A stretch of 42,145 nt of DNA from Escherichia phage vB_EcoS-Ro145c2YLVW, in sequence record NC_073322.1; one strand, written 5' to 3'. The position numbers and the translations under genes were made by a program. The notes under the pieces are model-generated. The model was not told where the DNA came from. It ran no database searches and worked only from the letters and a program-made list of their open reading frames with translations. Positions 10,598-40,829 of the stretch are shown piece by piece; within the stretch, counting starts at the first letter, position 1, and each line of letters opens with the position of its first letter.

Positions 10598-10626
10598 ATA
10601 GTACCCTACTATATTGGGGTGTGCAA
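10598..10626 (-). promoter_or_regulatory. sigma70-like promoter, class A cassette
   Basis: Minus strand TTGCAC-17 nt-TACTAT; near-identical to cassettes at 512, 20344, 41428. Confidence 0.5.
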
Positions 10627-12227: not shown

Positions 12228-13277
12228 ATGGCAATTACCACTATCGGCGATATCGTAACTGGCAACATCCCGGTCCTGGCGTCTTATATGACCGAGGATC
12301 CGGTAGAAAAAACCGCGTTCTTCCAGTCCGGTATTCTGACCCCGACTCCGTACGCTGCCGAGATTGCTCGTGGCCCGTCCAATATCGCTAATATTCCTTT
12401 CTGGAAAGCGATTGATACCTCTATCGAGCCTAACTACTCGAACGATGTGTATCAGGACATCGCTACCCCGCGTAATGTGCAAACCGGTGAGATGATGGCC
12501 CGCGTTGCGTACCTGAACGAAGGTTTTGGTCAGGCGGACCTGACTGTTGAACTTACCAGCCAGAATCCGCTGCAATCCGTGGCGTCCCGTCTGGATAACT
12601 TCTGGCAGCGCCAGGCGCAACGCCGTCTGATTGCTACCGCGCTCGGCCTGTACAACGACAACGTAGCCGCTACCGATGCTTACCACGAGCAGAATGACAT
12701 GGTAATCGACGTGTCCGCTACTCTGGGCTTCGACTCCGGCGCGTTCATCGACGCTACCCAGACTATGGGTGATGCTCTGATGGGCAACGGCGGTGAAGTG
12801 TTGGGTGCTATCGCGATGCACAGCTTCGTTTATGCGCAGGCGCGTAAGCAGCAGCTTATCGACTTCATTCGTGATGCTGACAACAACACCATGTTTGCCA
12901 CCTACCAGGGCTACCGTGTGATTGTTGACGACAGCATGACCGTAGTCGGTACCGGCCCGAGCCGTAAGTTCATCTCCATCATCTTTGGCAATGGCGCTAT
13001 CGGTTACGGCGAAGGCTCCCCGGCCAATCCGCTGGCCTACGAGCGCGAAGAATCCCGCGGCAACGGCGGTGGCGTTGAAACCCTGTGGACCCGTAAGACC
13101 TGGTTGCTGCATCCACTGGGCTACAGCTTCACCAGCACAGTAATCACCGGTAACGGCACCGAGACTGTCGCACGTTCTGCTTCCTGGCAGGACCTGGCGA
13201 ACGCCTCCAACTGGAACCGTGTGGTTGAGCGTAAGCATGTACCGATTGCCTTCCTGGTAACTGGTGTCGGGGCTTAA
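12228..13277 (+). CDS. major capsid protein
   Basis: 349-aa protein following scaffold, followed by strong terminator; position and size typical. Confidence 0.8.
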   Translation: MAITTIGDIVTGNIPVLASYMTEDPVEKTAFFQSGILTPTPYAAEIARGPSNIANIPFWKAIDTSIEPNYSNDVYQDIATPRNVQTGEMMARVAYLNEGFGQADLTVELTSQNPLQSVASRLDNFWQRQAQRRLIATALGLYNDNVAATDAYHEQNDMVIDVSATLGFDSGAFIDATQTMGDALMGNGGEVLGAIAMHSFVYAQARKQQLIDFIRDADNNTMFATYQGYRVIVDDSMTVVGTGPSRKFISIIFGNGAIGYGEGSPANPLAYEREESRGNGGGVETLWTRKTWLLHPLGYSFTSTVITGNGTETVARSASWQDLANASNWNRVVERKHVPIAFLVTGVGA

Positions 13278-13293
13278 GGTTAAGATATAATCG

Positions 13294-13320
13294 GGAGGGA
13301 CTTCGGTCCCTCTTTTCATT
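13294..13320 (+). terminator. rho-independent terminator
   Basis: GGGAGGGAC-TTCG-GTCCCTC hairpin followed by TTTTCATTT. Confidence 0.65.
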
Positions 13321-13336
13321 TACTAAGAGGTAAATT

Positions 13337-13636
13337 ATGGCTAAGACCGGAAAAGGCTTGCCGCGCAGCCTTCAGAACGTCGATTTCGGCGACTTTGACA
13401 TCCCAGTAACGCCGGCTACTACCAGCGTAGTTGGTGGGGTTAAAAAGTCAGCTACTGTGGCTGCACCTGCGGCCATTACCGCTGGCGAAGGAGCGCAGTC
13501 TGCTGATGCTCCAACTAAGACAGAGTTCGATGCTCTTGTAGCCGAGTACAACAAACTTCGAACTGATGTTACCGCGCTGCGCACTACCGTAGCAAATCTG
13601 TTGACTGCGCTTAAAAACGCAGGAACCGTAAGCTAA
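13337..13636 (+). CDS. hypothetical head-associated protein
   Basis: Track ORF; Ala/Thr-rich with C-terminal coiled coil. Confidence 0.5.
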   Translation: MAKTGKGLPRSLQNVDFGDFDIPVTPATTSVVGGVKKSATVAAPAAITAGEGAQSADAPTKTEFDALVAEYNKLRTDVTALRTTVANLLTALKNAGTVS

Positions 13637-13648
13637 AGGAGCTTAAAA

Positions 13649-13999
13649 ATGGTTGATGTAATCAAACGTCGTATTACCGGAGTTTCTGACGATTCTCCTG
13701 CCGACGGTCAGGTTGAAATCGACATGGCAAATATCTCACCAGCATCTTTTTCTACCGCGCTTGCGGCTACTACCGCAGTTACAGCAGGGAATACAATGAC
13801 TCTTACCGTAGTGGTAACTGGCGGTCTGGAGCCGTATTCCTACCAGTGGTACAAAGATAACAACGCTATCGCTGGCGCAAACGCTGCTTCCTATGCGAAG
13901 GCGTCCACTACTACCGCAGATTCAGGCACGTATAAAGTGGTTGTTCACGACGTATATGGTAATATTATCTCCAGTAGCACCATAGCAACTGTATCTTAA
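13649..13999 (+). CDS. structural protein with Ig-like domain
   Basis: PYSYQWYKDNNAI...GTYKVVVHDVYG resembles Ig-like fold; paralogous domain in 9857..10318. Confidence 0.55.
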   Translation: MVDVIKRRITGVSDDSPADGQVEIDMANISPASFSTALAATTAVTAGNTMTLTVVVTGGLEPYSYQWYKDNNAIAGANAASYAKASTTTADSGTYKVVVHDVYGNIISSSTIATVS

Positions 14000-14035
14000 T
14001 ACCGCGGCCCTTCGGGGCCGTAATAAGGAAAGGTC

Positions 14036-14215
14036 ATGGCAGATAATTATGTAATCCGCGAAAAGTACACCCACGTTGATGTTGTTGACGGTCAGGTGAC
14101 GCCAGTTCGCGGTGTGGTAGAAGAGGATGAACTGGTAGCGGTTCAACCGGAGAACGAAGAAGCGCGCAACAACGGTGGTGGTGTTAAGCGTCGTCGCCGT
14201 AAGTCGGAGGAATAA
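14036..14215 (+). CDS. hypothetical small protein (59 aa)
   Basis: ATG after AAGGAAAGG; basic C-terminus; just below track cutoff. Confidence 0.35.
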   Translation: MADNYVIREKYTHVDVVDGQVTPVRGVVEEDELVAVQPENEEARNNGGGVKRRRRKSEE

Positions 14216-14218
14216 TTC

Positions 14219-14731
14219 ATGCCGCTAATCGTGGAAGATGGGTCGATAGTACCTGACGCTGACAGTTACGTTAGCCTGGCTGATGCCCGCGCGTTAGCGG
14301 CTAATTATGGCTTTGAGCTGCCGGAAGACGATACCGCAGCAGAGGTGGCCTTGCGCAACGGCGCTACTTATGTCGGGCTTGCAGAACCGCAGATGTGCGG
14401 TCGTCGTGTATCCGCAGAGCAGTCTCTTGCGTACCCCCGCACCGGCGTTACGTTAAACGGATTCCCTGTAGCGAACAATGTCATTCCGAAGCAGGTAATT
14501 CTTGCGCAGGTAATCGCCGCTGTTACGTATGGTGTAGGTACGGAAGTGCGAGCTAACTCTGATGGGCGTTCCGTGCAGACTGAGCGCGTAGAAGGCGCAG
14601 TGACCGTGACATACTTCAACAACGGCAACAGTGGCGCTACGACCGCAATTACCGCCGCGGACGATGCCTTACGCCCGTTACTGTGTGGCGGACTTAACAA
14701 TGGCTTCTCCTTTAACGTGTACCGGGGTTAA
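14219..14731 (+). CDS. head-tail connector/adaptor (putative)
   Basis: Position between capsid and tail genes; track ORF. Confidence 0.45.
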   Translation: MPLIVEDGSIVPDADSYVSLADARALAANYGFELPEDDTAAEVALRNGATYVGLAEPQMCGRRVSAEQSLAYPRTGVTLNGFPVANNVIPKQVILAQVIAAVTYGVGTEVRANSDGRSVQTERVEGAVTVTYFNNGNSGATTAITAADDALRPLLCGGLNNGFSFNVYRG

Positions 14732-14733
14732 AA

Positions 14734-15348
14734 ATGGCGAAGACTAAAACAGAGATGTTTACCCTTATAGGCGCTAATCTTCCAGATAACACCGACAAAC
14801 TTATCACCCCCGCAGCATTGCGCGAGGTAATGACGCAGATGGCCGACTCGCCTATTTACGCCACTCCGGGTGTTAAAGAGGTAGAAGTTCTCCGTGCCGC
14901 GTCAACCGTGGCACAAGCGCCTACCGCAGTAGATACGGCATTGCAGTTAACTTTCGGCTCCGCTCAGGGGAGTGCATCTGACCCGGTAATGATTAATGCT
15001 GCGGGGCTGGTTACGTCCAACACCGCAGGTAACTACGCCGTTCGCATCAAGTTACAGGCCGGGCGCACCGGGGCCAGCGGTACATCTATCCTGCTATCGC
15101 GCATCCTCGTCAACGGCGCTCAATACGGTTCCCCCGCAGCAACTAAGCTGGTAAGCGCCGACATAACAATTCCTATTGAGTCCCGCGTTGTTATTGGCCC
15201 AACCGCAGGCCAGACGTTTGCCGTTCAGATTATGCGGGATAGCGCCGGGAGTAACTTCGGCGGCGTATATCCGCAAGCGGCTACGGTAACTGCATGGGGT
15301 ACAGCACCATCTGCGCTACTGGTTATCTCGAGACTGGAGGCTGCCTGA
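14734..15348 (+). CDS. hypothetical structural protein
   Basis: Track ORF, tight coupling with neighbours. Confidence 0.5.
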   Translation: MAKTKTEMFTLIGANLPDNTDKLITPAALREVMTQMADSPIYATPGVKEVEVLRAASTVAQAPTAVDTALQLTFGSAQGSASDPVMINAAGLVTSNTAGNYAVRIKLQAGRTGASGTSILLSRILVNGAQYGSPAATKLVSADITIPIESRVVIGPTAGQTFAVQIMRDSAGSNFGGVYPQAATVTAWGTAPSALLVISRLEAA

Positions 15349-15686
15349 TGAGCACCGATTTCAGTAAACGTATGCAAGGCGTAGGTACGCGCCTGCTAAC
15401 CAAATTCGGTAGCACGGTATCTCTGGTTCGCGCTGGCTCGAAAGTGTGGGACGAAGTTCTCGGCGAATACGTCTGGTCTGCGGATGAAGTGTTGCCGTTG
15501 AAGGCCGTTCCGGTTCCTGTTAACGCAGGACTGGTAAACGGTACGACGATTCAGGCAGGTGACATGATCGTTAAGGCTGATTACAGCGTCGTTCCGAAGA
15601 TGGAAGACAAGGTGCAATTTGGCGGCGAGCAATGGTCTATCGAAGCCATTGAGAAGAAGATGGTTAATGATGATGACGTGTCCTAA
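15348..15686 (+). CDS. head-tail joining protein (putative)
   Basis: Track ORF 15294..15686 trimmed to ATG 15348 overlapping upstream stop. Confidence 0.45.
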   Translation: MSTDFSKRMQGVGTRLLTKFGSTVSLVRAGSKVWDEVLGEYVWSADEVLPLKAVPVPVNAGLVNGTTIQAGDMIVKADYSVVPKMEDKVQFGGEQWSIEAIEKKMVNDDDVS

Positions 15687-17688: not shown

Positions 17689-17708
17689 AAGGCCCCGAAA
17701 GGGGCCTT
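17689..17708. terminator. bidirectional hairpin terminator AAGGCCCC-GAAA-GGGGCCTT
   Basis: Perfect 8-bp GC stem with GAAA loop between convergent genes; identical copy at 18218-18237. Confidence 0.6.
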
Positions 17709-17709
17709 A

Positions 17710-18204
17710 CTATTTACCGTGGTTCTCGTGGAACCCCAAATCTCTTTCAGCAACTCTCCTCGCGGCAACTGCATCTAGTATCGTCTTAAAGCACCCGATA
17801 TGTGTTTTTACGTTATTGTTGAATATCTGCGCGTACCACAACCTTTCTTTCGCGTTCCAGTAGACTCCGGTTACTCCTGATTTATTATTACGCTGTTTTG
17901 ACATATTTTTATGGTTTTCCGCATTGGACTTTTTAGCTAAGTTAAGCGGTCTATTGTTTATTCGGTCATGGTCTAGATGGTCTATTTGATCTGACGAGGT
18001 TAGCTTATTGTTAGGATTGTTTAAGTCCCAAGCTATACGGTGCGCCGCATGCCATTTACCCCGGAAAAATATCCTTCTATATCCGTCTCGCTGGACGGTA
18101 CCTGCTTCCTCTCCAGCCTTAGCCCTCCCGGACCGGGTTACTCTGTTAAATATCCTTCCTGAAATTAAGTCGTATATGAAAAATTCATTCCAATCCATAA
18201 TCAT
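17710..18204 (-). CDS. HNH homing endonuclease with AP2-type DNA-binding domain
   Basis: HNH-type motifs (YRRIFFRGKWHAAHRIAW, IDHLDHDRINN) and C-terminal GVTGVYW...W segment. Confidence 0.8.
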   Translation of the reverse strand: MIMDWNEFFIYDLISGRIFNRVTRSGRAKAGEEAGTVQRDGYRRIFFRGKWHAAHRIAWDLNNPNNKLTSSDQIDHLDHDRINNRPLNLAKKSNAENHKNMSKQRNNKSGVTGVYWNAKERLWYAQIFNNNVKTHIGCFKTILDAVAARRVAERDLGFHENHGK

Positions 18205-18217
18205 CTCCTATTGTGAT

Positions 18218-18237
18218 AAGGCCCCGAAAGGGGCCTT
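18218..18237. repeat. second copy of AAGGCCCCGAAAGGGGCCTT hairpin
   Basis: 20/20 nt identical to 17689-17708; followed by T run on plus strand. Confidence 0.6.
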
Positions 18238-18241
18238 TTTC

Positions 18242-18472
18242 TTACTCATCAATATTACTCCTGTACTCCCGTAACTTCTCCAGACTCTCAATTGCTTCCG
18301 CTAAGTCGGTTCCTGTGTCCTTGTGCCCCCGCAAGCCCATACACAATAGCTTCTTCAATGCGTGCTGTAACGCCGGGTCGCGGATGTCGAAGGCACGTAG
18401 CACGTCGTAAACGTCTACTGTCATAGTGCTGCCGTGAGTGTTTGTCATTGTGCGGTTGTATTTTGAAGTCAT
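18242..18472 (-). CDS. hypothetical protein (76 aa)
   Basis: Track ORF between the two HNH genes. Confidence 0.5.
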   Translation of the reverse strand: MTSKYNRTMTNTHGSTMTVDVYDVLRAFDIRDPALQHALKKLLCMGLRGHKDTGTDLAEAIESLEKLREYRSNIDE

Positions 18473-18485
18473 AAATCAATCTCCC

Positions 18486-18956
18486 CTACTCATGGTTTTC
18501 ATGAAAACCGTATTTACTCTCGGCGGCTTTACGCGCGGCAACCGCTACATCAAAATCGTCGTAAAGCCCTAAATGCACTTGTTTGTAGTTAACTTTTATA
18601 AACGCGCGCCACTTACCCGCGGCTTTGTGGAAACTTACACCTGTAGCCCCGGATTTATTTATCTTTCTCATAGTTTTATTTTTACTGTCCCCTGTATTGT
18701 CGGTGGCGCGTAGATTTTCTATTCTATTGTCTAGCCTGTTATGGTTTATGTGGTCTATTTGAGTTTTCCTGTCTAAGTCGCATTTATTATAAAGACACCA
18801 TGCTATGCGGTGGACATACACTGTTTTACCACCCATACCGCAGCACAGATAGCCTCTTACACCAACCGTACCAACCTCAGCACCAGTAGATATCCTGGTA
18901 ACCTGCCCCGTCTCAGGGCAGTATTTAAATTGTTTTGAAACATCAAGATACTTCAT
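18486..18956 (-). CDS. HNH homing endonuclease with AP2-type domain (paralog)
   Basis: VYVHRIAW, IDHINHNRLDN and GATGVSF...W motifs; paralogous to 17710..18204. Confidence 0.8.
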   Translation of the reverse strand: MKYLDVSKQFKYCPETGQVTRISTGAEVGTVGVRGYLCCGMGGKTVYVHRIAWCLYNKCDLDRKTQIDHINHNRLDNRIENLRATDNTGDSKNKTMRKINKSGATGVSFHKAAGKWRAFIKVNYKQVHLGLYDDFDVAVAARKAAESKYGFHENHE

Positions 18957-20083
18957 CTTAGCATCTCCGGTGAGATTGAAAGCCTACCTACTTCCCCGAA
19001 CTCTGAACTATAGGTTATGACATTAGCGGACCTCTTAGACATCCACCCGCCGCGAGAAGCATATGCATCTTTCGCCGCGAGAGTGCGATGTTGTTCCACT
19101 ACCATATTCCTACTTTCTACAATCTTTTGATGGTGGAGATGCCCGACATGTGCGTAACTGTACTCGCTTTCGCCAAATGCTTTTCTGAACTTAGCTATCA
19201 TAATGGGTTCGACCACCTCAAACCGGCATTTATGCCCGTGTGTAAAGAACAGTGTCGTTTTACCGTGTTGCACCATCTTGTAAACATCCGGCGACGTATC
19301 GACGAACACACGCGGCTCATTGTCGTACAGCGTACTGAACATCTCAGCCAACCAAATCATTCCGCTTTCGTCGTGGTTCCCTTGCACGATAAGCAAGCGA
19401 ACATTTTTATGCTTAACCAGCGCCATACCAACAACACGGCGTACCATACGAATCATGTAGCGGACTAGTTTCTGGTAGCGCGTGTCCGCATCAAGAACAT
19501 GACCGCTCGCTGGCGTAACGGCATCCAGACTATCGAAGTGTGCGAAGTCCCCGAGCAGATTAATGACTCCTGTTCCTGCATCTGGCGCTTTCTGGAATGC
19601 CGCATCGAACCATCGGGAGAACAGGTCTTCAGCAATCTTCATATCCCAGTCGTCGCCGCTCTCGTCGGCCCAGGCCAGCATGCCGAGATGGAAATCAGAT
19701 ACCGTGTAAAGATTGAGTAGTTTGTCGTCACGTTTGGCTCGAGTCGCTTTAACAGGCGCAACTGGGGTAATCTCTGACTTCATGCCTTCAACCACGGCTT
19801 TCATCAACTCAACCTGACGTTCGGCATCGGTGTCGGTCTTAACCCATTGCAACTTAGTGTTGCCGAACTCGTCTACCAGTGACGACGTTCCTTTAATCTT
19901 GTAGCCGTCTGGCACAAGGTGACTAACATCACGACCATGACCTACGCCTTTCTTCGCCAGCTTCGCTTTACGGATACGAATAACGCGGTCTGAGATGCCG
20001 TATTTACGGGCAATGTCGATATTCTTCATCCCGACGTTCAATTCTTCCTGTAACTGTTCGTCGGTTATTTTCTTCTGGGCCAT
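18953..20083 (-). CDS. calcineurin-like metallophosphoesterase with N-terminal HTH domain
   Basis: Ordered motifs DFH, GDFAHFD, GNHDE, THGHK, GHLHH match the metallophosphoesterase signature; N-terminal 110 aa has an HTH-like segment. Confidence 0.75.
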   Translation of the reverse strand: MAQKKITDEQLQEELNVGMKNIDIARKYGISDRVIRIRKAKLAKKGVGHGRDVSHLVPDGYKIKGTSSLVDEFGNTKLQWVKTDTDAERQVELMKAVVEGMKSEITPVAPVKATRAKRDDKLLNLYTVSDFHLGMLAWADESGDDWDMKIAEDLFSRWFDAAFQKAPDAGTGVINLLGDFAHFDSLDAVTPASGHVLDADTRYQKLVRYMIRMVRRVVGMALVKHKNVRLLIVQGNHDESGMIWLAEMFSTLYDNEPRVFVDTSPDVYKMVQHGKTTLFFTHGHKCRFEVVEPIMIAKFRKAFGESEYSYAHVGHLHHQKIVESRNMVVEQHRTLAAKDAYASRGGWMSKRSANVITYSSEFGEVGRLSISPEMLR

Positions 20084-20121
20084 GCTTACTTCCTCGTGTT
20101 TAGGATTTGTCCTATACTAGC

Positions 20122-20313
20122 TCACTTCTCGTTAACATTCGAGTTGCACGCCCAGATTAAAATAAATACCCACGGCAGCAGAACCCAACCAAGAAACAGG
20201 TTAGCCATGAATATCGCCAACTTCGCTTTATGGTTACGGAAATATGCAACCAGGAAAGGCGCGAAATAAGCGAGCAGTGCAAACAGAATTAAGGAAACTG
20301 GTAAACTTGACAT
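20122..20313 (-). CDS. small membrane protein (63 aa, two predicted TM helices)
   Basis: Track ORF trimmed to ATG 20313 with AAGGGG SD; own class A promoter. Confidence 0.5.
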   Translation of the reverse strand: MSSLPVSLILFALLAYFAPFLVAYFRNHKAKLAIFMANLFLGWVLLPWVFILIWACNSNVNEK

Positions 20314-20343
20314 TTTAAACCCCTTCATTGTTGGTGTAAGTGA

Positions 20344-20372
20344 ATAGTACCCTATTATATTGGGGTGTGCAA
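20344..20372 (-). promoter_or_regulatory. sigma70-like promoter, class A cassette
   Basis: Minus strand TTGCAC-17 nt-TACTAT; 30/32 identical to cassette at 10598-10626. Confidence 0.5.
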
Positions 20373-20480
20373 GTAATGTGATAGAATAATTTTGCGCCTA
20401 GTGTCGCACACGAAAAGCGGGTGGTTCCCGTCTGGCGCATTTATCGATAACCTGTAACCTCTTAACCAAAGGATTAAAGA

Positions 20481-20900
20481 ATGAAACTTTCTGATTTTTA
20501 TTTCGAAGAGAAAGCACTGGTAGGCAAGAAAATGCCGATTCTGCTGCCGAATGGCGAAGACTCCGGCGAGTGGCTTAATGTTGTAAGCCCTGATGCGGAT
20601 GCCGCCGTTAAAGCGGGGCGTGCTTTCATTATCGCGTACCGTCGCGGACTGGCGCGTTTTGAAGAACTGGAAAAAACCGCTAAAGCCTCCGGCGACTATA
20701 CAGAATATAACCTGGCGATTAATGAACTGGCGGAAGACCTCAACCGGCAACTCGCGGCTGAAGTCGTAAACGGCTGGAGCTTCGACGACGAGCCTTTCTC
20801 TAAGGAAGCGTTTAACAAATTGCTCGACCAGTTCAAAGGGCTTGGAACCCAGGTAGCCGCGTTCCATAACGCTGAGCGCAAAGCATTACAGGAAAAGTAG
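20481..20900 (+). CDS. tail assembly chaperone (putative, by position)
   Basis: First of two ORFs directly upstream of tape measure gene. Confidence 0.45.
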   Translation: MKLSDFYFEEKALVGKKMPILLPNGEDSGEWLNVVSPDADAAVKAGRAFIIAYRRGLARFEELEKTAKASGDYTEYNLAINELAEDLNRQLAAEVVNGWSFDDEPFSKEAFNKLLDQFKGLGTQVAAFHNAERKALQEK

Positions 20901-20932
20901 ACGCGCTGTACAGGTTCGCCACCTACGAGTTT

Positions 20933-21265
20933 GTGGATAAGCATAAAATCAGAGAGTTTGATTCTATAGCTGACGGACATGAACAGGCGCTTATCGCGAT
21001 GGGTGTAATCGATAAGAAAAAACGTGCAGCGCGACGGGGTGGGCCAGAATGTCCGCCCCTTTTCATATCCACCTTTGAGACGTATTGCGACATTAAGTTT
21101 ACGCGACACGTGCGCGAGGACGCTGTAGTATTGTTTGCAAGAGAATCCGTTACGTGGCAAGACCTGAAAGCCTATCTCGACGTTACACAAAAACAGCTTA
21201 GCCTGTTCGAGATAGACATTATCATGGGCTTAGAAGCAATCTTTGAAGGTAGAAACCATGGCTGA
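20933..21265 (+). CDS. second tail assembly chaperone-position ORF
   Basis: GTG start; frame is -1 relative to upstream ORF and open from 20876, but no canonical slippery heptamer seen. Confidence 0.35.
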   Translation: MDKHKIREFDSIADGHEQALIAMGVIDKKKRAARRGGPECPPLFISTFETYCDIKFTRHVREDAVVLFARESVTWQDLKAYLDVTQKQLSLFEIDIIMGLEAIFEGRNHG

Positions 21266-23528
21266 TATCGCTAGCTTGATAGTACGAGTATCCGCAACCG
21301 GCGTCGATAAAGTCACATCACAACTGAACGGGCTTACTAAAGCCGCAGGCGCTGCGGCTGCCGCCGTTGTCAGCCTGGAAACCGCTAAGCAGGTGTTCAG
21401 TGCGCTGGTGGACTCCCAGCGAAACTTCGATAAGCTGAACTCCGGCCTCATCACAATGACCGGGAGTGCTGAGAACGCGGCTAAGGCTTTCAGCGTCCTG
21501 CAACAGTTCGCGAAAGAAACCCCGTACGGCCTCAACCAGGCGGTGGAAGGCTTTACTAAACTTGTAGCCCTCGGCCTGAACCCCAGCAAAGAGGCGTTAA
21601 TCTCCTACGGCAACACCGCCGCTGCGATGGGTAAAGACCTTAATCAGATGATTGAGGCCGTGGCGGACGCCAGTACATTTGAATTTGAGCGACTGAAAGA
21701 GTTCGGTATTAAGTCTTCCCAACAGGCAGATACCGTTTCGTTCACGTTCCGCGGCGTAACGACCACAGTTAAGAAGAACTCCGAAGAAATTCAGAAATAC
21801 CTGCTAAACATCGGTAACACTGATTTCGCCGGGGCGATGGAAACGCGTTCGAAAACCCTTGACGGGCAGTTATCTAGCCTCGCGGACTCCTTTGACGGCC
21901 TTGTACTTGCGGTGGCGCAATCAGGTTTCGGCGACGCCGTAGGTGAGCAAGCTGCGACAGCGGAAGATGCCATCACGGCCCTAACCGATGCCATCGCGTC
22001 TAATGAGATAGCAGCCACGCTCCAGGATTGGGTGACACTGTTCAATGAATCGTTCAAGTTTATTTCTGACGCTTTGAACGATCTGGCATACGACACCGAG
22101 GACAAATCCGTGGATATGTCCGACTCGCTGGGGACTATCCCGGACGCTATTCGTGAGTGGTTGCCTGACATTCAGCAGACATTCCACGAGGTTATTGCGT
22201 GGTTCCAGCGCATTGACGATTACGCGGTCGCGTTAGGCCAGACCCTCGCCGACGTGTTCGACCCGAGCAAAACGGCAGCGCTAACATTTAAAAACCTGAC
22301 CGCAGAGGCCGACGCCGCATACGCCGCCAGCATAAAACGCGCAGAGGCCGAATCACAGGCTATCACCAACAGGTCTAAGCAGCGTAAGAAAGAAATTGAG
22401 GAACAGCGCAAGCAGTATGACGAGCGCAAGAAGCAAGAAATTGACTTAGCCAGCCTTGTTAATAAAAAGAGCGGAAATGGTGGAACCGGAAATACCAACG
22501 ACAAAGACGCGAAAGCCGCCGCTAAGAAAGCGGAGCAATTGCGTAAACAGGCCCAGGATTATCTCGACACTTTGGCCCGTCAGAACAACGACGAATTAAA
22601 GGCTATTGACGCACAGGAACAGCAGAAACTGGCTAAGGCAAAAGAGTTCTACAACCAGGGCGCGTTGGCTCTGAAAGAATACGAGCAAGCAAAAACGGCT
22701 ATCGTCCTCGAAGCCGGACAAGCACGGCAGGAAGAGCTGGATAAGCGAGAGAAAGAACGGCAGGAAAAGCAGCAGAAAGGTGAAGACTTCATGGCTCAGA
22801 TTATGGGTCAGAATGCCGCCGAGCTTGAGCTTCTGGAAATTCAGGAACAACAAAAACTGGACGTTGCGGACCGATACCGCGAACAGAACCTTATTAATGA
22901 GGAGCAGTACCAGGCTGCGGTTAATGCCATAAATGACCAATATGCTTTGAAGCGCGCCAACGCTACAGGTAACGCTTTCGGGATGATGGCGGATAACATG
23001 AAGGCCTCACTAGGGGAGGCGTCGTCCGCGTACAAAGCATTCGCTATTGCTCAGGCCACAATCGCCACATACACCTCCGCTATTGAGGCTTATAAATCAG
23101 CGTCCGCTATCCCCGTGATTGGCTGGGTTATGGGGCCAATTGCCGCCGCCGCCGCCGTAGCCGCCGGTATGGCTAACATAGGTAAGATTCGTTCGGCTCG
23201 TGAACAGGGTGGTCAATTATCCGCGGGCCAGATGTCCACCATCGCTGAACGCGGTAAACCGGAGGTTATCATGCCTGCGGGGGCATCGCGTGTGCGCACC
23301 GCGCAGCAGATGAAAGAGATTATGGGGCAAAACGGCGGAAACTCCGGCGGTGACAGCGTGACAATTGTCAACAACACCACCGGGCGAGTTGATTCTGCGG
23401 TAACAGAACGTGATGACGAAGGGCGTTTACGTATTATAATCAGTGAAACAGTATCGGCGGCGTTACAGGACAGCAACAGCGCAATCTCTAAGTCACGCCG
23501 TGCTACACGAAACCAGCCGGGGTATTAA
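21258..23528 (+). CDS. tail tape measure protein
   Basis: 757 aa, long coiled-coil central region, Gly-rich C-terminal segment; canonical position. Confidence 0.8.
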   Translation: MADIASLIVRVSATGVDKVTSQLNGLTKAAGAAAAAVVSLETAKQVFSALVDSQRNFDKLNSGLITMTGSAENAAKAFSVLQQFAKETPYGLNQAVEGFTKLVALGLNPSKEALISYGNTAAAMGKDLNQMIEAVADASTFEFERLKEFGIKSSQQADTVSFTFRGVTTTVKKNSEEIQKYLLNIGNTDFAGAMETRSKTLDGQLSSLADSFDGLVLAVAQSGFGDAVGEQAATAEDAITALTDAIASNEIAATLQDWVTLFNESFKFISDALNDLAYDTEDKSVDMSDSLGTIPDAIREWLPDIQQTFHEVIAWFQRIDDYAVALGQTLADVFDPSKTAALTFKNLTAEADAAYAASIKRAEAESQAITNRSKQRKKEIEEQRKQYDERKKQEIDLASLVNKKSGNGGTGNTNDKDAKAAAKKAEQLRKQAQDYLDTLARQNNDELKAIDAQEQQKLAKAKEFYNQGALALKEYEQAKTAIVLEAGQARQEELDKREKERQEKQQKGEDFMAQIMGQNAAELELLEIQEQQKLDVADRYREQNLINEEQYQAAVNAINDQYALKRANATGNAFGMMADNMKASLGEASSAYKAFAIAQATIATYTSAIEAYKSASAIPVIGWVMGPIAAAAAVAAGMANIGKIRSAREQGGQLSAGQMSTIAERGKPEVIMPAGASRVRTAQQMKEIMGQNGGNSGGDSVTIVNNTTGRVDSAVTERDDEGRLRIIISETVSAALQDSNSAISKSRRATRNQPGY

Positions 23529-24900: not shown

Positions 24901-25217
24901 TATTACACTACACCCGTAACGAAGACGGTACTTTCGACCGCAAACGGTACAACGTACCGCCGATGGAATACGTCGTTGCTAACATCCCTGACGGGGTGCC
25001 GGTACGTATTTACCGGGGCGAGATTGGCGAGGATACGGAAGTAACGGAAGATTTCGAAGCGCTGAAAGAAGACGACGTATTCCATATTATCGAAGGTGCT
25101 GGTGGCGGTGGCGGTGTTCTCGGAAAACTGCTTGACCCATTGGGTGTGCTTAAGTTTATCACTAAACTGATTTCCCCGTCGCAGACAACGCCTAAAACTA
25201 GTGTAGCTAACCAGTAA
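24891..25217 (+). CDS. tail assembly protein (lambda I-like position)
   Basis: Small protein with poly-Gly linker; C-terminal 17 codons repeated at N-terminus of next gene. Confidence 0.5.
   Translation: MALILHYTRNEDGTFDRKRYNVPPMEYVVANIPDGVPVRIYRGEIGEDTEVTEDFEALKEDDVFHIIEGAGGGGGVLGKLLDPLGVLKFITKLISPSQTTPKTSVANQ
25164..25214 (+). repeat. 51-bp direct repeat, copy 1
   Basis: AAACTGATTTCCCCGTCGCAGACAACGCCTAAAACTAGTGTAGCTAACCAG; 49/51 identical to 25278-25328. Confidence 0.8.
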
Positions 25218-25259
25218 TCCGGAGGGGGTTGTGTAGGGAAAGAGCGTAAACCTTGGGGG

Positions 25260-27560
25260 GTGCCGAAGTATTTCAAAAAACTGATTTCCCCGTCGCAGAA
25301 AACGCCTAAAACTAGTTTAGCTAACCAGCAGGCGGAGTCGCCAAACAACAACCTGACGGACCGAAACAATAAACCTCGCCCGTATGAGCGGTCGTATGAT
25401 ATTTGCGGCAGGGTACAGACTATCCCTAATGACCTCATGACTACCTATAAAATATTCGATGAATCCGGCCGAATTATCGAGTATGGATACTACGACGCCG
25501 GTCGAGGTTACCTGGATATCAAAGCAGAAGACATTACTGACGGCGATACTAAAGTACAGGAGATTACAGGTACATCTGTCGCGGTGTATGCGCCGTTTAC
25601 ATCGCCTAACAATACAAATACTCCTCAGCTTCTGGTGGGGGAACCTATCAATCAGAATCTTTATATAACTATCGCTTCTAATGAAGTAGACGGAGCCGTT
25701 CTTAAAGCCCGTAACGATATAAGGGTTAACCCTAGCGACACGGGCCGTGTGAGATATGACTCTGCTACAAAAATTGGATACCTGTATGATGGCACGGGGG
25801 ATTCTGGCTTCGCGGAAATATTATCTGTTGGCGATACCGCGTCGTTCAATAACTTTGACGTTCCGGACGTAACAAATACCAACGGCAACTTTCGTGTTCT
25901 TTATGTCGATAACTTCGAGCTGCGGGTCGACACCGGCGGCGCGTCTAACTGGGCTGCTTTAGGTTCAACCACCTATTCACTTTCCCCGAGAAGTGACACG
26001 TGGGTGGGCCCTGTGAATACGTATGAAAGAACATTAACCGACTGGACCACCTTAAACCGCCTGGAAGTTGAACGAGTAGTTGCTAACATTGCCGCCGCGA
26101 ATGGCATGTACAAGGACAACGGCAGTAAATTGCGCACCGCTGTAACTGTAGAGCTTCAATATCAGCTACTAGATGAATCCGGGGCACCGTACGGAAGCAT
26201 TTACTCGAAACAGGCCACTATATCCGGGCGGTCCGCAGATTACACCGGGGTCACCATTTACGCCGACCTGCCCGTGCGGTCGAAAGTCAGGGTACGCGCC
26301 CGGCGTGTTACCAACCTGGACCTCGATTTCGAGGGCACCGTGGTAGACGAGGTTTCCTACATCAACCTTTACGGGCAGGTCCGCGACACTACGCCGCATT
26401 ACGGCAACCGTACTACTGTACACTCTGCACGTAAGCCGACGCCGCGGGCCGCAGAGATTAAGCAGCCGCAGCTACGTATGGTCGCGACGGAGATGGTGTA
26501 CAAATACCTCGGCAACGGCGTATTTGACGCGGTTATGACACCTAATACCCAAGCCGTTCAGTCGTTAATACGCCTGGCGCGGGACCCAGTAGTAGGAAAC
26601 CTCAATCTCACCACGGCTAACATGGATAAGTTGTTGGCTACGCAAGCAGAGATTGAAAATTATTTCGGAAATGCTGAGGCTGGGCAGTTCTGCTACACAT
26701 TCGATGATTACAAAACGACTATGCAGGACATCATCAGCACAATAGCTGATGCTATTTTCTGCACGCCATATCGTAAAGGGCAAGACATATTACTGGATTT
26801 CGAGCGCCCTCGTATGGGGCCGGAGATGGTATTCACCCACCGCAGTAAAACAACGGCATCCGAGAGGTGGACTAGGACATTCAACGACGCTCAGGTATAC
26901 GATAGTCTTAAGTTCTCCTACATCGACCCAGATACCAACGTAAAAGAGACTATTAGCATTCCAGCCGAAGGTGGTGTTAATACCGAAACGTATGACTCCA
27001 AGGGTATACGTAATTATCGCCAGGCGTACTGGGCGGCGTACCGCCGCTACCAGAAAAACCTGTTGAAGAAGGTAACGGTATCATTCACGGCGACAGAAGA
27101 AGGGATTTTTGCAATGCCTGGGCGTGCGGTAAGTGTGGTAAAAGGTTCGCGTATGGCTCCACAAGACGGCTATGTAATCGCCGTTAACGGGCTTACGCTT
27201 ACTCTTTCTCGGCCGGTCGCGTTTACTCCTGGGGATGACCACTCACTGATTCTTAAGAAGCGAGACGGGGGAGTTCAAAGTGTTGCCGTTGTGCCTGGAA
27301 GCCACGACCGTGAAGTGGTTATGCTATCCGCGCCGCAGGAGGCAATTTACACGGGGAATAGCGCACTAAAAACTGAGTTTTCATTCGGCAACGAAGCAAG
27401 GCATAATGCTCAGATGATTCTTGTTTCTACAGTTGACCCCGGAGATGACAGAACAGTTAAGATTACCGGGATTAACTATGAAGCAGATTTCTATAAATAC
27501 GACGGCGTCGCGCCTTTCGGTCGCGGTTTCTCCGACGGATTCAGCAACGGTTTTAGTTAA
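25260..27560 (+). CDS. central tail fiber / tail tip protein (J-like, putative)
   Basis: 766-aa protein downstream of tail-tip assembly genes; GTG start after CTTGGGGGG. Confidence 0.65.
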   Translation: MPKYFKKLISPSQKTPKTSLANQQAESPNNNLTDRNNKPRPYERSYDICGRVQTIPNDLMTTYKIFDESGRIIEYGYYDAGRGYLDIKAEDITDGDTKVQEITGTSVAVYAPFTSPNNTNTPQLLVGEPINQNLYITIASNEVDGAVLKARNDIRVNPSDTGRVRYDSATKIGYLYDGTGDSGFAEILSVGDTASFNNFDVPDVTNTNGNFRVLYVDNFELRVDTGGASNWAALGSTTYSLSPRSDTWVGPVNTYERTLTDWTTLNRLEVERVVANIAAANGMYKDNGSKLRTAVTVELQYQLLDESGAPYGSIYSKQATISGRSADYTGVTIYADLPVRSKVRVRARRVTNLDLDFEGTVVDEVSYINLYGQVRDTTPHYGNRTTVHSARKPTPRAAEIKQPQLRMVATEMVYKYLGNGVFDAVMTPNTQAVQSLIRLARDPVVGNLNLTTANMDKLLATQAEIENYFGNAEAGQFCYTFDDYKTTMQDIISTIADAIFCTPYRKGQDILLDFERPRMGPEMVFTHRSKTTASERWTRTFNDAQVYDSLKFSYIDPDTNVKETISIPAEGGVNTETYDSKGIRNYRQAYWAAYRRYQKNLLKKVTVSFTATEEGIFAMPGRAVSVVKGSRMAPQDGYVIAVNGLTLTLSRPVAFTPGDDHSLILKKRDGGVQSVAVVPGSHDREVVMLSAPQEAIYTGNSALKTEFSFGNEARHNAQMILVSTVDPGDDRTVKITGINYEADFYKYDGVAPFGRGFSDGFSNGFS
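25278..25328 (+). repeat. 51-bp direct repeat, copy 2
   Basis: AAACTGATTTCCCCGTCGCAGAAAACGCCTAAAACTAGTTTAGCTAACCAG. Confidence 0.8.
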
Positions 27561-38296: not shown

Positions 38297-40537
38297 CTAT
38301 TCCAAATCTTCCTCTGTAACTTTCAGCATCTCATTCGGTTCGTATATTGTCTTCGGCCTTAATCTGTCACCTATCTTTTCGGGTATCCGGTATGTGCCGG
38401 GGGCAACTTCACCGTTAACATCACACCCGAGCATCAACTCACCGTCTTTCAGCATCTTCTCAAGATGGTGGTTGGTGATGGCGTGGTCCCCCGAGTTCGC
38501 CACTATCTGCCGTTGGGTAAAACCTCGTCCGGTGTCGTCGGACTGTTGCAGGTCTTCCAGCGCGGCGAGTATTGATTCCTTACGCCCTTCATCCTTCCCG
38601 CGTTTTACAGCATTCTTTACGTTTTCTTTACCTTCCTTTGTCAGCCCTTCTTCCCGCTCTTTCTCCTCGTCAGTTTTGAATGGCTCGAAGCCCCACGGCA
38701 TCAACACAAGCGCCTTGTGTGGTTCCGGCAGGTCGAGGTTTACGATTGTGCCGTATTCCTCCGTGCTGCCCAGGAACTCCACCGCGCGGTACTCTTTCGG
38801 CGGTGGCGCTTCACGGAACTGTACCGACTCCAGCACCATACCAACCGTCTTCTGTTGAGGCCCGTGCTTAAATTTAGAGTGGTATACGTTTATCTGACGG
38901 TCGGTTGCGCGTTCAATTGTCAGCTCCACGTCGACACCCGCATACAGCGCCCCACTGCCACGGGCTTTCTTTCCACCCTTCGGGGTATGGTGAACAACGC
39001 CCACCGCAGCTTTGGTTGCGTCGCGTACTTCTTTCAGGATGGCAATGACTTTACCCATGCCGATTGCCGTCGATGAACTGTTCTCGTCGAACTTATCAAT
39101 CGTCAGGGCCAGGGTCTGGTTGAGGGTATCGAACGCGACCATCCCAATTGGCTCGTCACCCGCGGTTTCGCGCATCAACTTAATCAGGCTTTTCAGTTTT
39201 CCGACTTCACCCATGTCGATGACATGTACATAATCTTTACCTTCCTCGCCATATTTAGCCGCGAGTGCGTCGATGCGTGTGCGTGTAGCAGCACCACCCT
39301 CACCGTCGATATAGAAATGGTGGCAACGCTGGGTATCTGCCCCTGCAAACCGGTATCCGGCGGCGCTAAGGTACATCATCCCCAGCGTATAGAACGATTT
39401 GTACGTGCCAGATTCCCCGACGATATCCCAGATACAATCCGACGGCATGTACCCTTCAACGACGAAATCAGCCTTTACCGGTTCCGGTAACTCGTCCTCC
39501 TCTGGATCCTCGTCGTCTTCCAGGTCGTCCAGGCTGCATGAAACATATTCACGTGCACCCCATCCGATGGCCTCTGCAACTTCACTGAACGGCAGCCCGG
39601 TCGCATCGCACGCGTATTTCCACACATCTTTCGGTGGCCTGCCTTCTGTCGCCCCAATGTCGGTGTCGTGAATCATGGTTACGTTCGGCGCTTCGTACCC
39701 TTCACGTGGGAAACACAGCAGGAAGTCGTCCGGGCGTGGCGTCGGGTCGCTGTAGTTTTCTGCGTGTTCTGGTGTGGCAGGCATCTTAAGGCCGCGAGGC
39801 GTCATGATGCCGCCGTACTCAAACGCCAGCGATTCAAACGCATCTGTAAACGCGGTGCGCAGTTCTTCCGGAATCTGGTAGTCAGATGCGCTGCTTACCT
39901 CGTAATCCGGGATGCCTTCCAGTAACTCGTCAGGGTCAATCAGGTCATTGCGGCGCGCCCAGATAACGGTAGAGCCGACCGGCGGCAGGTACATAGGCTG
40001 AGACAGAGTGAACCCGCTGCGGTCGGCACCCATGCCTTTGAAGAAGTGCTCCAGCAATCCGTGACGAACGCGGATGATGTCACCACCTTCAACCGGACGC
40101 CCCAGCGGCATGACGACGCGAAAGCGCGGTGACTCATCGGTATGTGATGCCGTAGTGTAAAGGCACATAGCCTGACGGCTGCGCTTAACCAGGCACACCA
40201 CTTCCTGATACTCTTCCGGCGTTGCGCTGTCGAAGTCCAGGTACGCCAGCGACGATTTACTTACAGACGCGTCACAGCGATAAAAGAAGCCTTTGCGCGC
40301 TTGCTTAAAGTCACCGGTTTCCGGGTCTTTTACGGTGCTGTGCGTAGCGTCGCACGCGGCAGTAACATAGCCAGGTGCTGTCTTCGGGTTAATTCCGTCG
40401 CGAACGGAATCGAGTGGACGGATTAACTCTTTCAGGTCGTCCAGTGTTGCCGTGTGTGTTGTTCTGACGTTTATATCCTTTTTCTCCGCCCGCGCGTTGC
40501 GACGAGACCACGAGTAGGATAAGATTGCATCGGACAT
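38297..40537 (-). CDS. DNA primase/helicase (primase-like N-terminal region plus RecA-like P-loop ATPase)
   Basis: Walker A GESGTYKS in central domain; 746 aa; canonical position in replication module. Confidence 0.65.
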   Translation of the reverse strand: MSDAILSYSWSRRNARAEKKDINVRTTHTATLDDLKELIRPLDSVRDGINPKTAPGYVTAACDATHSTVKDPETGDFKQARKGFFYRCDASVSKSSLAYLDFDSATPEEYQEVVCLVKRSRQAMCLYTTASHTDESPRFRVVMPLGRPVEGGDIIRVRHGLLEHFFKGMGADRSGFTLSQPMYLPPVGSTVIWARRNDLIDPDELLEGIPDYEVSSASDYQIPEELRTAFTDAFESLAFEYGGIMTPRGLKMPATPEHAENYSDPTPRPDDFLLCFPREGYEAPNVTMIHDTDIGATEGRPPKDVWKYACDATGLPFSEVAEAIGWGAREYVSCSLDDLEDDEDPEEDELPEPVKADFVVEGYMPSDCIWDIVGESGTYKSFYTLGMMYLSAAGYRFAGADTQRCHHFYIDGEGGAATRTRIDALAAKYGEEGKDYVHVIDMGEVGKLKSLIKLMRETAGDEPIGMVAFDTLNQTLALTIDKFDENSSSTAIGMGKVIAILKEVRDATKAAVGVVHHTPKGGKKARGSGALYAGVDVELTIERATDRQINVYHSKFKHGPQQKTVGMVLESVQFREAPPPKEYRAVEFLGSTEEYGTIVNLDLPEPHKALVLMPWGFEPFKTDEEKEREEGLTKEGKENVKNAVKRGKDEGRKESILAALEDLQQSDDTGRGFTQRQIVANSGDHAITNHHLEKMLKDGELMLGCDVNGEVAPGTYRIPEKIGDRLRPKTIYEPNEMLKVTEEDLE

Positions 40538-40595
40538 GTTGTGTTTCCTTCAGCAAGTAATTTGGCCTCGGCGTTCACCGCGTCGGGGCTTTCTT

Positions 40596-40829
40596 TTATT
40601 CCAGGTCTTCTAAAGTAGCGGTCATTCCGCGAACTTCTGCAACAGCGCTATATTTCCCGCCAACGTTTTTTACGACACCGGATTTAACCAGCACGCGTAA
40701 CGACGCTTCAATAATGGCGGAACTATAGTACTTAAAATAACTGCGGCGCAAGTCAAGAACACTACACGACCCTTTTTTACGTGTAAGCGAAACTACCGCC
40801 GTAAATACTCGTGACTGGAACTCTGTCAT
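40596..40829 (-). CDS. hypothetical protein ending in TLEDLE
   Basis: Track ORF; shares C-terminal DLE tail with primase and exonuclease. Confidence 0.45.
   Translation of the reverse strand: MTEFQSRVFTAVVSLTRKKGSCSVLDLRRSYFKYYSSAIIEASLRVLVKSGVVKNVGGKYSAVAEVRGMTATLEDLE

What the first reader, a model, noticed from the sequence alone, without database searches (positions are those of the whole stretch)
20122..20313. Small two-helix membrane protein under its own conserved promoter
A 63-aa protein with two hydrophobic helices is the first gene downstream of a class A promoter inside the island. Small inner-membrane proteins in this arrangement are typical of superinfection exclusion or injection-blocking functions, but no family assignment can be made by eye.
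Basis: inference. Interest (0 to 1): 0.4.

Follow-up and report, generated by a model that had tools for sequence, protein, structure and literature searches.

The report
T4 Imm-family superinfection immunity gene
The small membrane protein is real and is a recognisable relative of phage T4's Imm protein, which stops a second phage from injecting its DNA. The gene is therefore ordinary and is already annotated this way in sister phages, although nobody has tested the function in this phage group.

Summary
The window is Escherichia phage vB_EcoS-Ro145clw (Kagunavirus, Guernseyvirinae), 99.9% identical to MG852086.2. The ORF at 20122-20313 (minus strand, 63 aa) is a real gene. It has a Shine-Dalgarno site, and it is the first gene after a 40-nt promoter element (TTGCAC-17-TACTAT) present four times in the genome.

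A family assignment is possible. The protein matches Pfam PF14373 Imm_superinfect (48.6 bits, cut-off 27.9) and PHROG 1039, the same two families as T4 Imm. It keeps the two T4 residues shown by mutagenesis to matter (R33 aligns to R26, W50 to W43). A confident AlphaFold model (pLDDT 94) shows a kinked transmembrane helix followed by a helical hairpin. Identical proteins in sister phages are already annotated "superinfection immunity protein".

The most likely function, by homology only, is an inner-membrane blocker of DNA entry by superinfecting phages. A 2026 preprint shows T4 Imm binds the tape measure protein. This phage's tape measure shows no similarity to T4's, so the target here is unproven.

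Side observations:
- An int-alpA-like RNA motif sits beside the promoter.
- A palindrome is shared by promoter sites across the genome.
- The Imm N-terminal helix has alleles that track tape-measure alleles, probably through linkage.

Interest is low.

The parts
20122..20313 (-). imm-like gene, 63 aa, stop codon included. It is a member of the Imm_superinfect family (T4 Imm family).
   Evidence: ORF and translation. Pfam PF14373 at 48.6 bits against a cut-off of 27.9. PHROG 1039 at E 3e-22. AlphaFold pLDDT 94.4. GenBank CDS AUX83756.1.
20320..20325 (-). Shine-Dalgarno sequence AAGGGG, 6 nt upstream of the ATG at 20313
   Evidence: Read directly from the sequence.
20344..20372 (-). Sigma-70-type promoter of the repeated 'class A' element. 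The -35 is TTGCAC (20372-20367), the spacer is 17 nt, and the -10 is TACTAT (20349-20344). The inferred transcription start is near 20337.
   Evidence: Four copies in the window against 0 expected. Both hexamers and the 17-nt spacing are kept in Jerseyvirus Ent1 (TTGCAT-17-TATTAT) while the spacer sequence diverges. The start site is inferred and has not been mapped.
20343..20356 (.). Palindrome AATAG-N4-CTATT overlapping the -10 region. It is a possible operator shared with other promoter-like sites.
   Evidence: Six exact copies in the window against 0.04 expected. Two further one-mismatch copies lie at about 10606-10619 and 38019-38039. The operator role is inference.
18953..20083 (-). Next gene of the same transcription unit: a 376-aa metallophosphoesterase / DNA repair exonuclease. 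It lies 38 nt downstream of imm with no terminator between them.
   Evidence: Pfam Metallophos_2 and Metallophos, both just below their curated cut-offs (25.6 vs 27 and 19.4 vs 21.5 bits). PHROG 704 at E 1.7e-164. No terminator-like site at 20084-20121. The same gene pair occurs in Ent1.
17710..18956 (-). Distal, variable part of the minus-strand island: an HNH endonuclease (18486-18956), a 76-aa protein (18242-18472) and a second HNH endonuclease (17710-18198).
   Evidence: PHROG 99 and PHROG 2452. The HNH gene is absent from most related loci. ORF_10 and ORF_11 are absent from K1G (PMC6627115).
17690..17709 (.). GC-rich hairpin AAGGCCCC-TTTC-GGGGCCTT at the end of the island. On the minus strand it is followed by TTTTAC. 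It is a likely terminator of the imm operon and, in the other direction, of the major tail gene.
   Evidence: Sequence and repeat families D5 and I4. Function is inferred.

Best explanation
The gene encodes a small inner-membrane protein of the T4 Imm family (Pfam Imm_superinfect).

**Expression (inferred).** Host RNA polymerase transcribes the gene from a sigma-70-type promoter, TTGCAC-17-TACTAT. Copies of the same promoter element also precede small non-structural genes elsewhere in the genome. The gene leads a minus-strand operon embedded in the tail-gene module.

**Protein (predicted, not shown experimentally).** The protein inserts in the cytoplasmic membrane. It has a variable N-terminal transmembrane helix (residues 4-25, kinked at P19), a positively charged cytoplasmic loop (R26-K31), and a conserved helical hairpin (31-41 and 45-55) with G42-W43 at the turn.

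**Function (by homology with T4 Imm only).** It blocks transfer of DNA from a superinfecting phage across the inner membrane, so an already infected cell is closed to further Kagunavirus-type phages.

**Mechanism.** The most likely molecular mechanism, carried over from the 2026 T4 work, is binding of the incoming phage's tape measure protein so that it cannot open a channel. This last step is the least certain.
For: **Family membership**
- PF14373 scores 48.6 bits against a cut-off of 27.9, E 7.5e-13.
- PHROG 1039 'immunity to superinfection' scores E 3.3e-22, and T4 Imm hits the same two families.
- Direct BLASTP against T4 Imm gives 26% identity over 54 residues, E 8e-10.
- The family signature Y16 F17 P19 R26 H28 I34 N38 G42 W43 W48 W54 is at least 90% conserved over 84 diverse members.

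**Functional residues**
- T4 Imm R33A and W50A reduce exclusion (bioRxiv 10.64898/2026.03.06.709160).
- These residues align to R26 and W43 here.

**Fold**
- The AlphaFold model has pLDDT 94.4 and pTM 0.76, with a helix 1 followed by a conserved helical core. This is the layout the preprint describes for T4 Imm.
- The five best viral fold matches (Foldseek probability 1.00) include four annotated superinfection immunity proteins and one unnamed protein, with TM-scores 0.68-0.74.

**Promoter**
- The element is repeated four times.
- The hexamers are conserved in a different genus.

**Conservation and expression**
- The gene is conserved at this position across Kagunavirus and Jerseyvirus.
- A 98% identical gene is transcribed during infection by Kagunavirus K1B4. 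There it falls in the same temporal class as DNA polymerase and methylase genes, not the class of the tail genes (PMC12645636).

**Annotation**
- Identical proteins are annotated 'superinfection immunity protein' in Bas74 and DUEC01.
Against: - No exclusion phenotype has been measured for any non-T4 member in the searched literature.
- The family is very large, with 7667 representative clusters at E<=1e-3, many of them longer proteins of up to 332 aa. Only T4 Imm has been characterised, so transferring function at 26% identity is an inference.
- The Ro145clw tape measure shows no detectable similarity to T4 gp29 (BLASTP E>=20) and falls in a different Pfam family. Target homology therefore does not support the tape-measure-binding step.
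- The K1B4 RNA-seq study classed the gene as peaking 'late'. That time course ran 120 min and put DNA polymerase in the same class.
- The promoter hexamers match the sigma-70 consensus in only 7 of 12 positions. The generic scan instead listed an overlapping ATCACA-17-TATAAT.
- There is no match in PADLOC or NCBIfam.
Confidence: 0.6

Rival explanations
1. The protein is a true Imm-fold membrane protein, but its role in this siphovirus is something other than blocking DNA entry. It might modify a host membrane function or protect against lysis from without. Alternatively it could act on a host inner-membrane component rather than on the tape measure.
For: The family is huge and almost entirely uncharacterised. 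The tape measure here is unrelated in sequence to T4 gp29. No phenotype data exist for this clade.
Against: The only tested member blocks injection. The two residues needed for that activity are conserved. The conserved core, not just the fold, is retained at 26-58% identity across phages of many hosts.
Confidence: 0.25
2. The protein works together with the adjacent 376-aa metallophosphoesterase/exonuclease as a two-part exclusion unit. In this model Imm acts as a membrane gate and the nuclease acts on arrested incoming DNA.
For: The imm-exonuclease gene pair, 38 nt apart with no terminator, is conserved from Kagunavirus to Jerseyvirus. A membrane-bound nuclease that cleaves phage DNA during injection has been described as a bacterial defence (PMC13190303; title and abstract only).
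Against: The exonuclease belongs to a general phage 'DNA repair exonuclease' family (PHROG 704). By my reading of its sequence it has no obvious hydrophobic segment. In T4 and in Acinetobacter phage vB_AQ1, imm homologues have no such neighbour. Gene adjacency alone is weak evidence.
Confidence: 0.05
3. The protein is a holin, antiholin or lysis-timing protein. Small proteins with two hydrophobic segments often are.
For: Its size and hydropathy resemble class II holins. The K1B4 paper states, without data, that the protein is 'involved in cell lysis'.
Against: There is no holin family hit in Pfam or PHROGs, and the specific hits are to Imm. The phage has a separate lysis cassette, with two holin-like genes, an endolysin and spanins, elsewhere in the genome. 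The gene is driven by the promoter class that also precedes small non-structural genes.
Confidence: 0.04

Closest known systems
Phage T4 Imm (immunity to superinfection; NP_049660; Pfam PF14373, PHROG 1039)
   Same: Both fall in the same Pfam and PHROG families. They share 26% identity at E 8e-10. The YxxP...R...IF...GW...W...W signature is conserved, including the functionally tested R33 and W50. The predicted helix layout is the same. Both are small membrane proteins of a virulent phage.
   Different: The protein here is 63 aa against 83 aa in T4, and it lacks T4's hydrophilic C-terminal tail. It is carried by a siphovirus whose tape measure is unrelated in sequence to T4 gp29. It sits inside the tail-gene module next to the chaperone and tape-measure genes, whereas T4 imm lies between genes 42 and 43. 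Its function is untested.
Phage HK97 gp15 (moron-encoded superinfection exclusion protein acting through the tape measure)
   Same: Both are small membrane proteins (62 aa in HK97). Both are encoded in the tail module right beside the tail assembly chaperone and tape measure genes. HK97 gp15 is proposed to block DNA entry through the tape measure (preprint discussion).
   Different: The two are not homologous. HK97 gp15 is YebO-like (PF13974) with one hydrophobic helix, and the hhalign probability is 2%. HK97 is temperate and gp15 is expressed from the prophage. HK97 gp15 is a single-gene moron with its own terminator, whereas the gene here heads a five-gene operon.
Phage P22 SieA
   Same: It is an inner-membrane protein of a phage that prevents DNA entry of superinfecting phages (PMC10883804; title and abstract only).
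   Different: By my own knowledge it is a much larger protein of a different family, encoded by a temperate podovirus. No sequence comparison was run here.

Membership tests
Imm_superinfect (PF14373) / PHROG 1039, the T4 Imm family | Profile match above the curated threshold | tested here: met
   PF14373 scores 48.6 bits against a gathering score of 27.9 and covers profile positions 2-42 of 42. PHROG 1039 scores E 3.3e-22. T4 Imm itself scores 58.2 bits and E 6.6e-32 in the same models.
Imm_superinfect (PF14373) / PHROG 1039, the T4 Imm family | Conserved signature residues, including the two shown by mutagenesis to matter in T4 (R33, W50) | tested here: met
   R26 and W43 align to T4 R33 and W50. 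P19 and R26 are invariant, and Y16, F17, A23, H28, I34, N38, G42, W43, W48 and W54 are at least 90% conserved in 84 members. Mutant data come from bioRxiv 10.64898/2026.03.06.709160.
Imm_superinfect (PF14373) / PHROG 1039, the T4 Imm family | Small protein with an N-terminal transmembrane helix plus a conserved hydrophobic helical core | tested here: met
   Hydropathy. AlphaFold pLDDT 94.4 with helices 4-16, 18-25, 31-41 and 45-55. Of the five best BFVD matches (Foldseek probability 1.00), four are annotated superinfection immunity proteins and one is unnamed.
Imm_superinfect (PF14373) / PHROG 1039, the T4 Imm family | Inner-membrane localisation with the N-terminus in the periplasm | not testable with these tools
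   Only the positive-inside rule is available: the loop R26-K31 carries +3 and the N-terminus is uncharged.
Imm_superinfect (PF14373) / PHROG 1039, the T4 Imm family | Expression early in infection | tested here: inconclusive
   The gene has a sigma-70-type promoter shared with small non-structural genes. The K1B4 RNA-seq study shows transcription but classes the peak as 'late', together with DNA polymerase, in an unsynchronised 120-min course.
Imm_superinfect (PF14373) / PHROG 1039, the T4 Imm family | Blocks DNA injection of superinfecting phage (exclusion phenotype) | not testable with these tools
   No experimental report was found for any Guernseyvirinae Imm.
Imm_superinfect (PF14373) / PHROG 1039, the T4 Imm family | Binds the tape measure protein of the excluded phage (T4 mechanism, 2026 preprint) | tested here: inconclusive
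   Binding cannot be tested here. As a proxy, homology between the targets was tested and not found. Ro145clw TMP against T4 gp29 gives BLASTP E>=20, and the two fall in different Pfam families, TMP_3 and T4_Tape_measure. Ro145clw TMP has a hydrophobic segment at residues 614-642, and the preprint reports a predicted transmembrane segment in T4 gp29.
HK97 gp15-type exclusion proteins (YebO-like, PF13974) | Sequence or profile similarity to HK97 gp15 | tested here: not met
   The hhalign probability is 2.4%. HK97 gp15 hits PF13974, not PF14373.
Holins | Match to a holin family and location in a lysis cassette | tested here: not met
   There are no holin hits. The annotated lysis genes lie at record positions 32333-33372 and 41048-41543, far from this gene.
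Moron (independent single-gene transcription unit) | Own promoter and own terminator flanking one gene | tested here: not met
   A promoter is present. There is no terminator in the 38-nt gap before the next gene. The unit is a five-gene operon ending at the 17690-17709 hairpin.

The most novel reading that the evidence does not exclude
Imm-family proteins may be general blockers of tape-measure-mediated channel formation in siphoviruses as well as myoviruses, even though the tape measures share no sequence similarity. In Guernseyvirinae the variable N-terminal helix of Imm (residues 1-15, at least three alleles) would then set which tape-measure allele is excluded.

This would explain why Imm type A travels with tape-measure type A in about 39 of 43 GenBank records. 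The two variable blocks are separated by a 170-nt intergenic region that is 90-100% conserved.

Against this reading:
- The T4 interface lies in the conserved core, not in helix 1.
- The membrane-active C-terminal part of the tape measure is 70-90% conserved between the two alleles.
- Recombinants exist in both directions.
- Physical linkage explains the pattern more simply.
Probability: 0.12. Interest if true: 0.5.

Novelty: already known. Interest (0 to 1): 0.15.

Why it matters
For annotation, the 'hypothetical protein' AUX83756.1 can be renamed as an Imm-family superinfection immunity protein.

Biologically, the gene is a convenient test case. Kagunavirus phages are now available in the BASEL collection on E. 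coli K-12 with O-antigen. That makes it possible to ask whether the T4 Imm mechanism (binding the tape measure protein) extends to siphoviruses whose tape measures are unrelated in sequence.

For phage-cocktail design, an exclusion gene in a therapeutic or biocontrol phage could interfere with co-applied relatives.

None of this is surprising to a specialist.

Tried and rejected
- **Word-indexed protein search.** It returned only 9 close relatives. The exhaustive HMMER search was needed to see the size of the family.
- **Solved structures.** There was no sequence hit and no fold hit, so no experimental template is available.
- **PADLOC and NCBIfam.** Neither gave a match.
- **HK97 gp15.** I considered it as a relative because of its size and its position next to the tape measure gene. 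I rejected it because it belongs to a different family.
- **Holin.** Rejected (see rival explanations).
- **Imm helix 1 and tape-measure alleles.** I considered whether covariation between them shows specificity. I judged it most likely linkage, for four reasons. Crossovers fall in the conserved imm core and in the conserved intergenic region. Discordant recombinants exist (L013, L025, fEg-Eco19, HSE2, LM02P1, UTEC10, EcoPhCCP1). The sample is phylogenetically non-independent. The T4 interface is in the core.
- **Position next to the tape measure gene.** I considered whether this is a general feature of imm genes. It is not: T4 imm lies between genes 42 and 43, and the Acinetobacter phage vB_AQ1 homologue lies among small early genes.
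- **Generic promoter scan.** It did not list TTGCAC-17-TACTAT, which matches 7 of 12 positions. It listed an overlapping ATCACA-17-TATAAT instead. Conservation in Ent1 favours the former, but this is unresolved without a mapped transcription start.

Full report
**Identity of the window.** A 3-kb stretch around the finding is 100% identical to Escherichia phage vB_EcoS-Ro145clw (MG852086.2; Guernseyvirinae, Kagunavirus). Over its whole length the window is a rotated copy of that genome: window coordinate = record coordinate + 11929. It is 99.9% identical, with 31 mismatches and one extra 114-nt unit. In the record, the ORF in question is CDS AUX83756.1, 'hypothetical protein'.

**The observation.** The ORF at 20122-20313 on the minus strand encodes 63 aa. 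AAGGGG lies 6 nt before the ATG at 20313. The in-frame ATG at 20328 has no ribosome-binding site, and in type-B relatives the corresponding ATG is out of frame. The 63-aa reading is therefore right.

Hydropathy shows two hydrophobic stretches, residues 4-25 and 32-56, around a positively charged loop R26-N-H-K-A-K31.

The 'class A promoter' is a real repeated element. TTGCAC/T-N17-TACTAT followed by TCAnTTA occurs at 512 (+), 41428 (+), 20372 (-) and 10626 (-). Each copy lies 20-35 nt before a start codon with a Shine-Dalgarno site, and none is expected by chance. In Jerseyvirus Ent1 the homologous site keeps both hexamers and the 17-nt spacing (TTGCAT-17-TATTAT) while the spacer diverges, as expected for a working promoter. 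The generic scan did not list this pair, which matches 7 of 12 positions. It listed an overlapping ATCACA-17-TATAAT instead, so the exact start site needs mapping.

The 'island' is a block of five minus-strand genes between the major tail protein gene and the tail-assembly-chaperone and tape-measure genes:
- imm;
- a metallophosphoesterase / DNA repair exonuclease;
- an HNH endonuclease;
- a 76-aa protein;
- a second HNH endonuclease.

There is no terminator between imm and the exonuclease gene. A GC-rich hairpin followed by T residues at 17690-17709 closes the unit. The imm-exonuclease core of the island is conserved in Jerseyvirus Ent1. The HNH genes are variable (PMC6627115).

**What it is.** The protein matches Pfam PF14373 Imm_superinfect (48.6 bits, gathering score 27.9, E 7.5e-13) and PHROG 1039 'immunity to superinfection' (E 3.3e-22). 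T4 Imm, fetched from NC_000866, hits the same two models. Direct BLASTP against T4 Imm gives 26% identity, E 8e-10.

An exhaustive profile search finds 7667 representative clusters at E<=1e-3. In an alignment of 84 diverse members, P19 and R26 are invariant. Y16, F17, A23, H28, I34, N38, G42, W43, W48 and W54 are at least 90% conserved.

With that alignment, AlphaFold gives a confident model (pLDDT 94.4, pTM 0.76) with helices 4-16, 18-25, 31-41 and 45-55. This amounts to a transmembrane helix kinked at P19, followed by a helical hairpin with G42-W43 at the turn. The shallow alignment had given two long helices at pLDDT 77.

Of the five best matches (Foldseek probability 1.00) among predicted viral structures, four are annotated superinfection immunity proteins of Aeromonas, Pseudomonas, Serratia and Mycobacterium phages and one is unnamed. 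There is no solved structure by sequence or by fold.

Identical proteins are already annotated 'superinfection immunity protein' in SonjaBuckley_Bas74 and vB_Ec_DUEC01. The 98% identical K1G RefSeq protein is named 'immunity to superinfection'.

**How it most likely works.** T4 Imm is the only characterised member. A 2026 preprint (bioRxiv 10.64898/2026.03.06.709160) reports the following:
- Imm co-purifies with a fragment of the T4 tape measure protein gp29 that contains its transmembrane and helical-bundle domains.
- Imm has an N-terminal helix with a periplasmic N-terminus and a conserved hydrophobic core of three further helices.
- A loop of that core carrying W50 faces the tape measure.
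- W50A and R33A reduce exclusion.

Both residues are conserved here (W43, R26), and the predicted helix layout is the same.

I therefore propose four steps. The gene is transcribed by host polymerase from the class A promoter. The protein inserts in the inner membrane. It prevents superinfecting phage DNA from crossing that membrane. It most likely does so by engaging the incoming tape measure.

What is shown is family membership, the conserved key residues, the fold prediction and the promoter repeat. What is inferred is timing, localisation, phenotype and target.

The main caveat concerns the target. The Ro145clw tape measure has no detectable similarity to T4 gp29 (BLASTP E>=20) and belongs to a different Pfam family. 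It does have a hydrophobic segment, at residues 614-642, and the preprint reports a predicted transmembrane segment in T4 gp29.

**Expression data.** An RNA-seq study of Kagunavirus K1B4 lists its 'superinfection immunity protein' gene as transcribed. Its expression peak falls in the same class as the DNA polymerase and methylase genes, not the class of the tail genes. The authors call that class 'late', in a 120-min unsynchronised course (PMC12645636). This fits a non-structural expression programme but does not establish early timing.

**Literature.** No experimental test of an Imm homologue in Guernseyvirinae, or in any non-T4-like phage, was found.

**Allele pattern.** Kagunavirus Imm comes in two forms that differ only in about the first 25 residues. 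Type A is the form in this phage and type B is the other. Jerseyvirus has a third form.

In 23 IMG/VR loci and in GenBank phages, type A Imm goes with type A chaperones and tape measure. The approximate GenBank counts are 39 A/A, 4 A/non-A, 2 B/A and 37 non-A/non-A records. By contrast, the exonuclease gene on the other side of imm stays 90-96% identical in all but one of the Kagunavirus loci (60% in L008) and shows no A/B pattern.

The two variable blocks are separated by an intergenic region that is 90-100% identical. The type B tape measure is Jerseyvirus-like. The C-terminal part of the tape measure, including the hydrophobic segment, is 70-90% conserved between types.

Several points favour ordinary linkage: recombinants exist in both directions, the sample is not phylogenetically independent, and the T4 interface lies in the conserved core. 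I therefore regard linkage, with crossovers in conserved sequence, as the likelier explanation. Specificity carried by helix 1 remains a low-probability alternative.

**Comparison with known systems.** The gene is a member of the T4 Imm family. HK97 gp15 is a 62-aa exclusion protein encoded between the chaperone and tape measure genes, so it is analogous in position and in proposed target. It is not homologous (PF13974; hhalign probability 2%). Holin and single-gene moron classifications fail their tests.

**Verdict.** The feature is already known as a kind, and sister genomes already annotate it this way. Interest is low.

Noticed in passing
window 20391-20455 (+ strand), in the divergent intergenic region just upstream of the imm promoter: A conserved structured element matches Rfam RF02996 int-alpA RNA across the full model. 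It scores 31.7 bits here, below the gathering score of 35.8, with E 3.9e-5 in a 201-nt search. The same site in related Kagunavirus loci L013, L026 and L027 scores 36.6 bits, above the threshold. Between Kagunavirus and Jerseyvirus, hairpin 1 shows two compensatory pair changes (G-C to C-G and U-A to G-C) and three wobble-preserving changes, with 95% of cells paired. All 44 IMG/VR matches to the motif core lie on contigs whose recorded length is 41-45 kb in most cases. It lies on the chaperone/tape-measure strand, 26 nt before the chaperone start codon. It may be a leader of that mRNA or a small RNA.
   Followed up: partly
window 20379-20387 (+ strand): A possible extended -10 promoter, TGaTAGAAT, lies 6-7 nt before the int-alpA-like motif and back to back with the imm promoter. 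The TGnTAGAAT form is kept in all Kagunavirus loci, with the middle base free to vary. Jerseyvirus has TGTTATTCT at the same place. The chaperone and tape-measure genes may therefore have their own start point after the reverse-strand island.
   Followed up: partly
window 528-541, 20343-20356, 32129-32142, 35705-35718, 37975-37988, 41444-41457; one-mismatch copies near 10606-10619 and 38019-38039: The palindrome AATAG-N4-CTATT occurs six times exactly, against 0.04 expected. It overlaps the -10 region of the class A promoters and of a second repeat family, AACTATAATAGnTnACTATT. It looks like a shared operator for a phage regulator. No binding protein was identified.
   Followed up: partly
imm residues 1-25 (window about 20239-20313) versus the chaperone and tape-measure genes at 20481-23528; loci L005-L028: Two Imm alleles differ only in the N-terminal helix. 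They travel with two chaperone/tape-measure alleles (about 55% aa identity) across a 90-100% conserved intergenic spacer. There are a few recombinants: L013, L025, fEg-Eco19, HSE2, LM02P1, UTEC10 and EcoPhCCP1. The type B block is Jerseyvirus-like.
   Followed up: yes
window 25106-25328: Two tandem units of 114 nt, 79% identical, lie inside the 851-aa tail gene (record 12962-15517, annotated 'putative tail assembly chaperone protein'). The window carries 114 nt (38 codons, in frame) more than MG852086.2 at this site, and it differs from the record at 31 other positions.
   Followed up: no
window 17710-18198 and 18486-18956 (- strand): The island holds two paralogous HNH (HNH_3 + AP2) endonuclease genes, both PHROG 99, with a 40-nt repeat at 17950-17989 and 18723-18762. 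They are absent from most related Kagunavirus loci, which suggests mobile homing endonucleases.
   Followed up: partly
window 17690-17709 and 18217-18240: Two copies of the hairpin AAGGCCCC-GAAA-GGGGCCTT are present. The first sits between the major tail gene and the end of the reverse island and could terminate transcription in both directions. The second lies inside the island but has its T-run only on the plus strand, antisense to the island genes.
   Followed up: no
window 10449-10626 (- strand; record 40449..40673): A second reverse-strand gene is driven by a class A promoter copy (10626). It encodes a 74-aa protein of unknown function inside the plus-strand structural and lysis region. 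It was not characterised.
   Followed up: no
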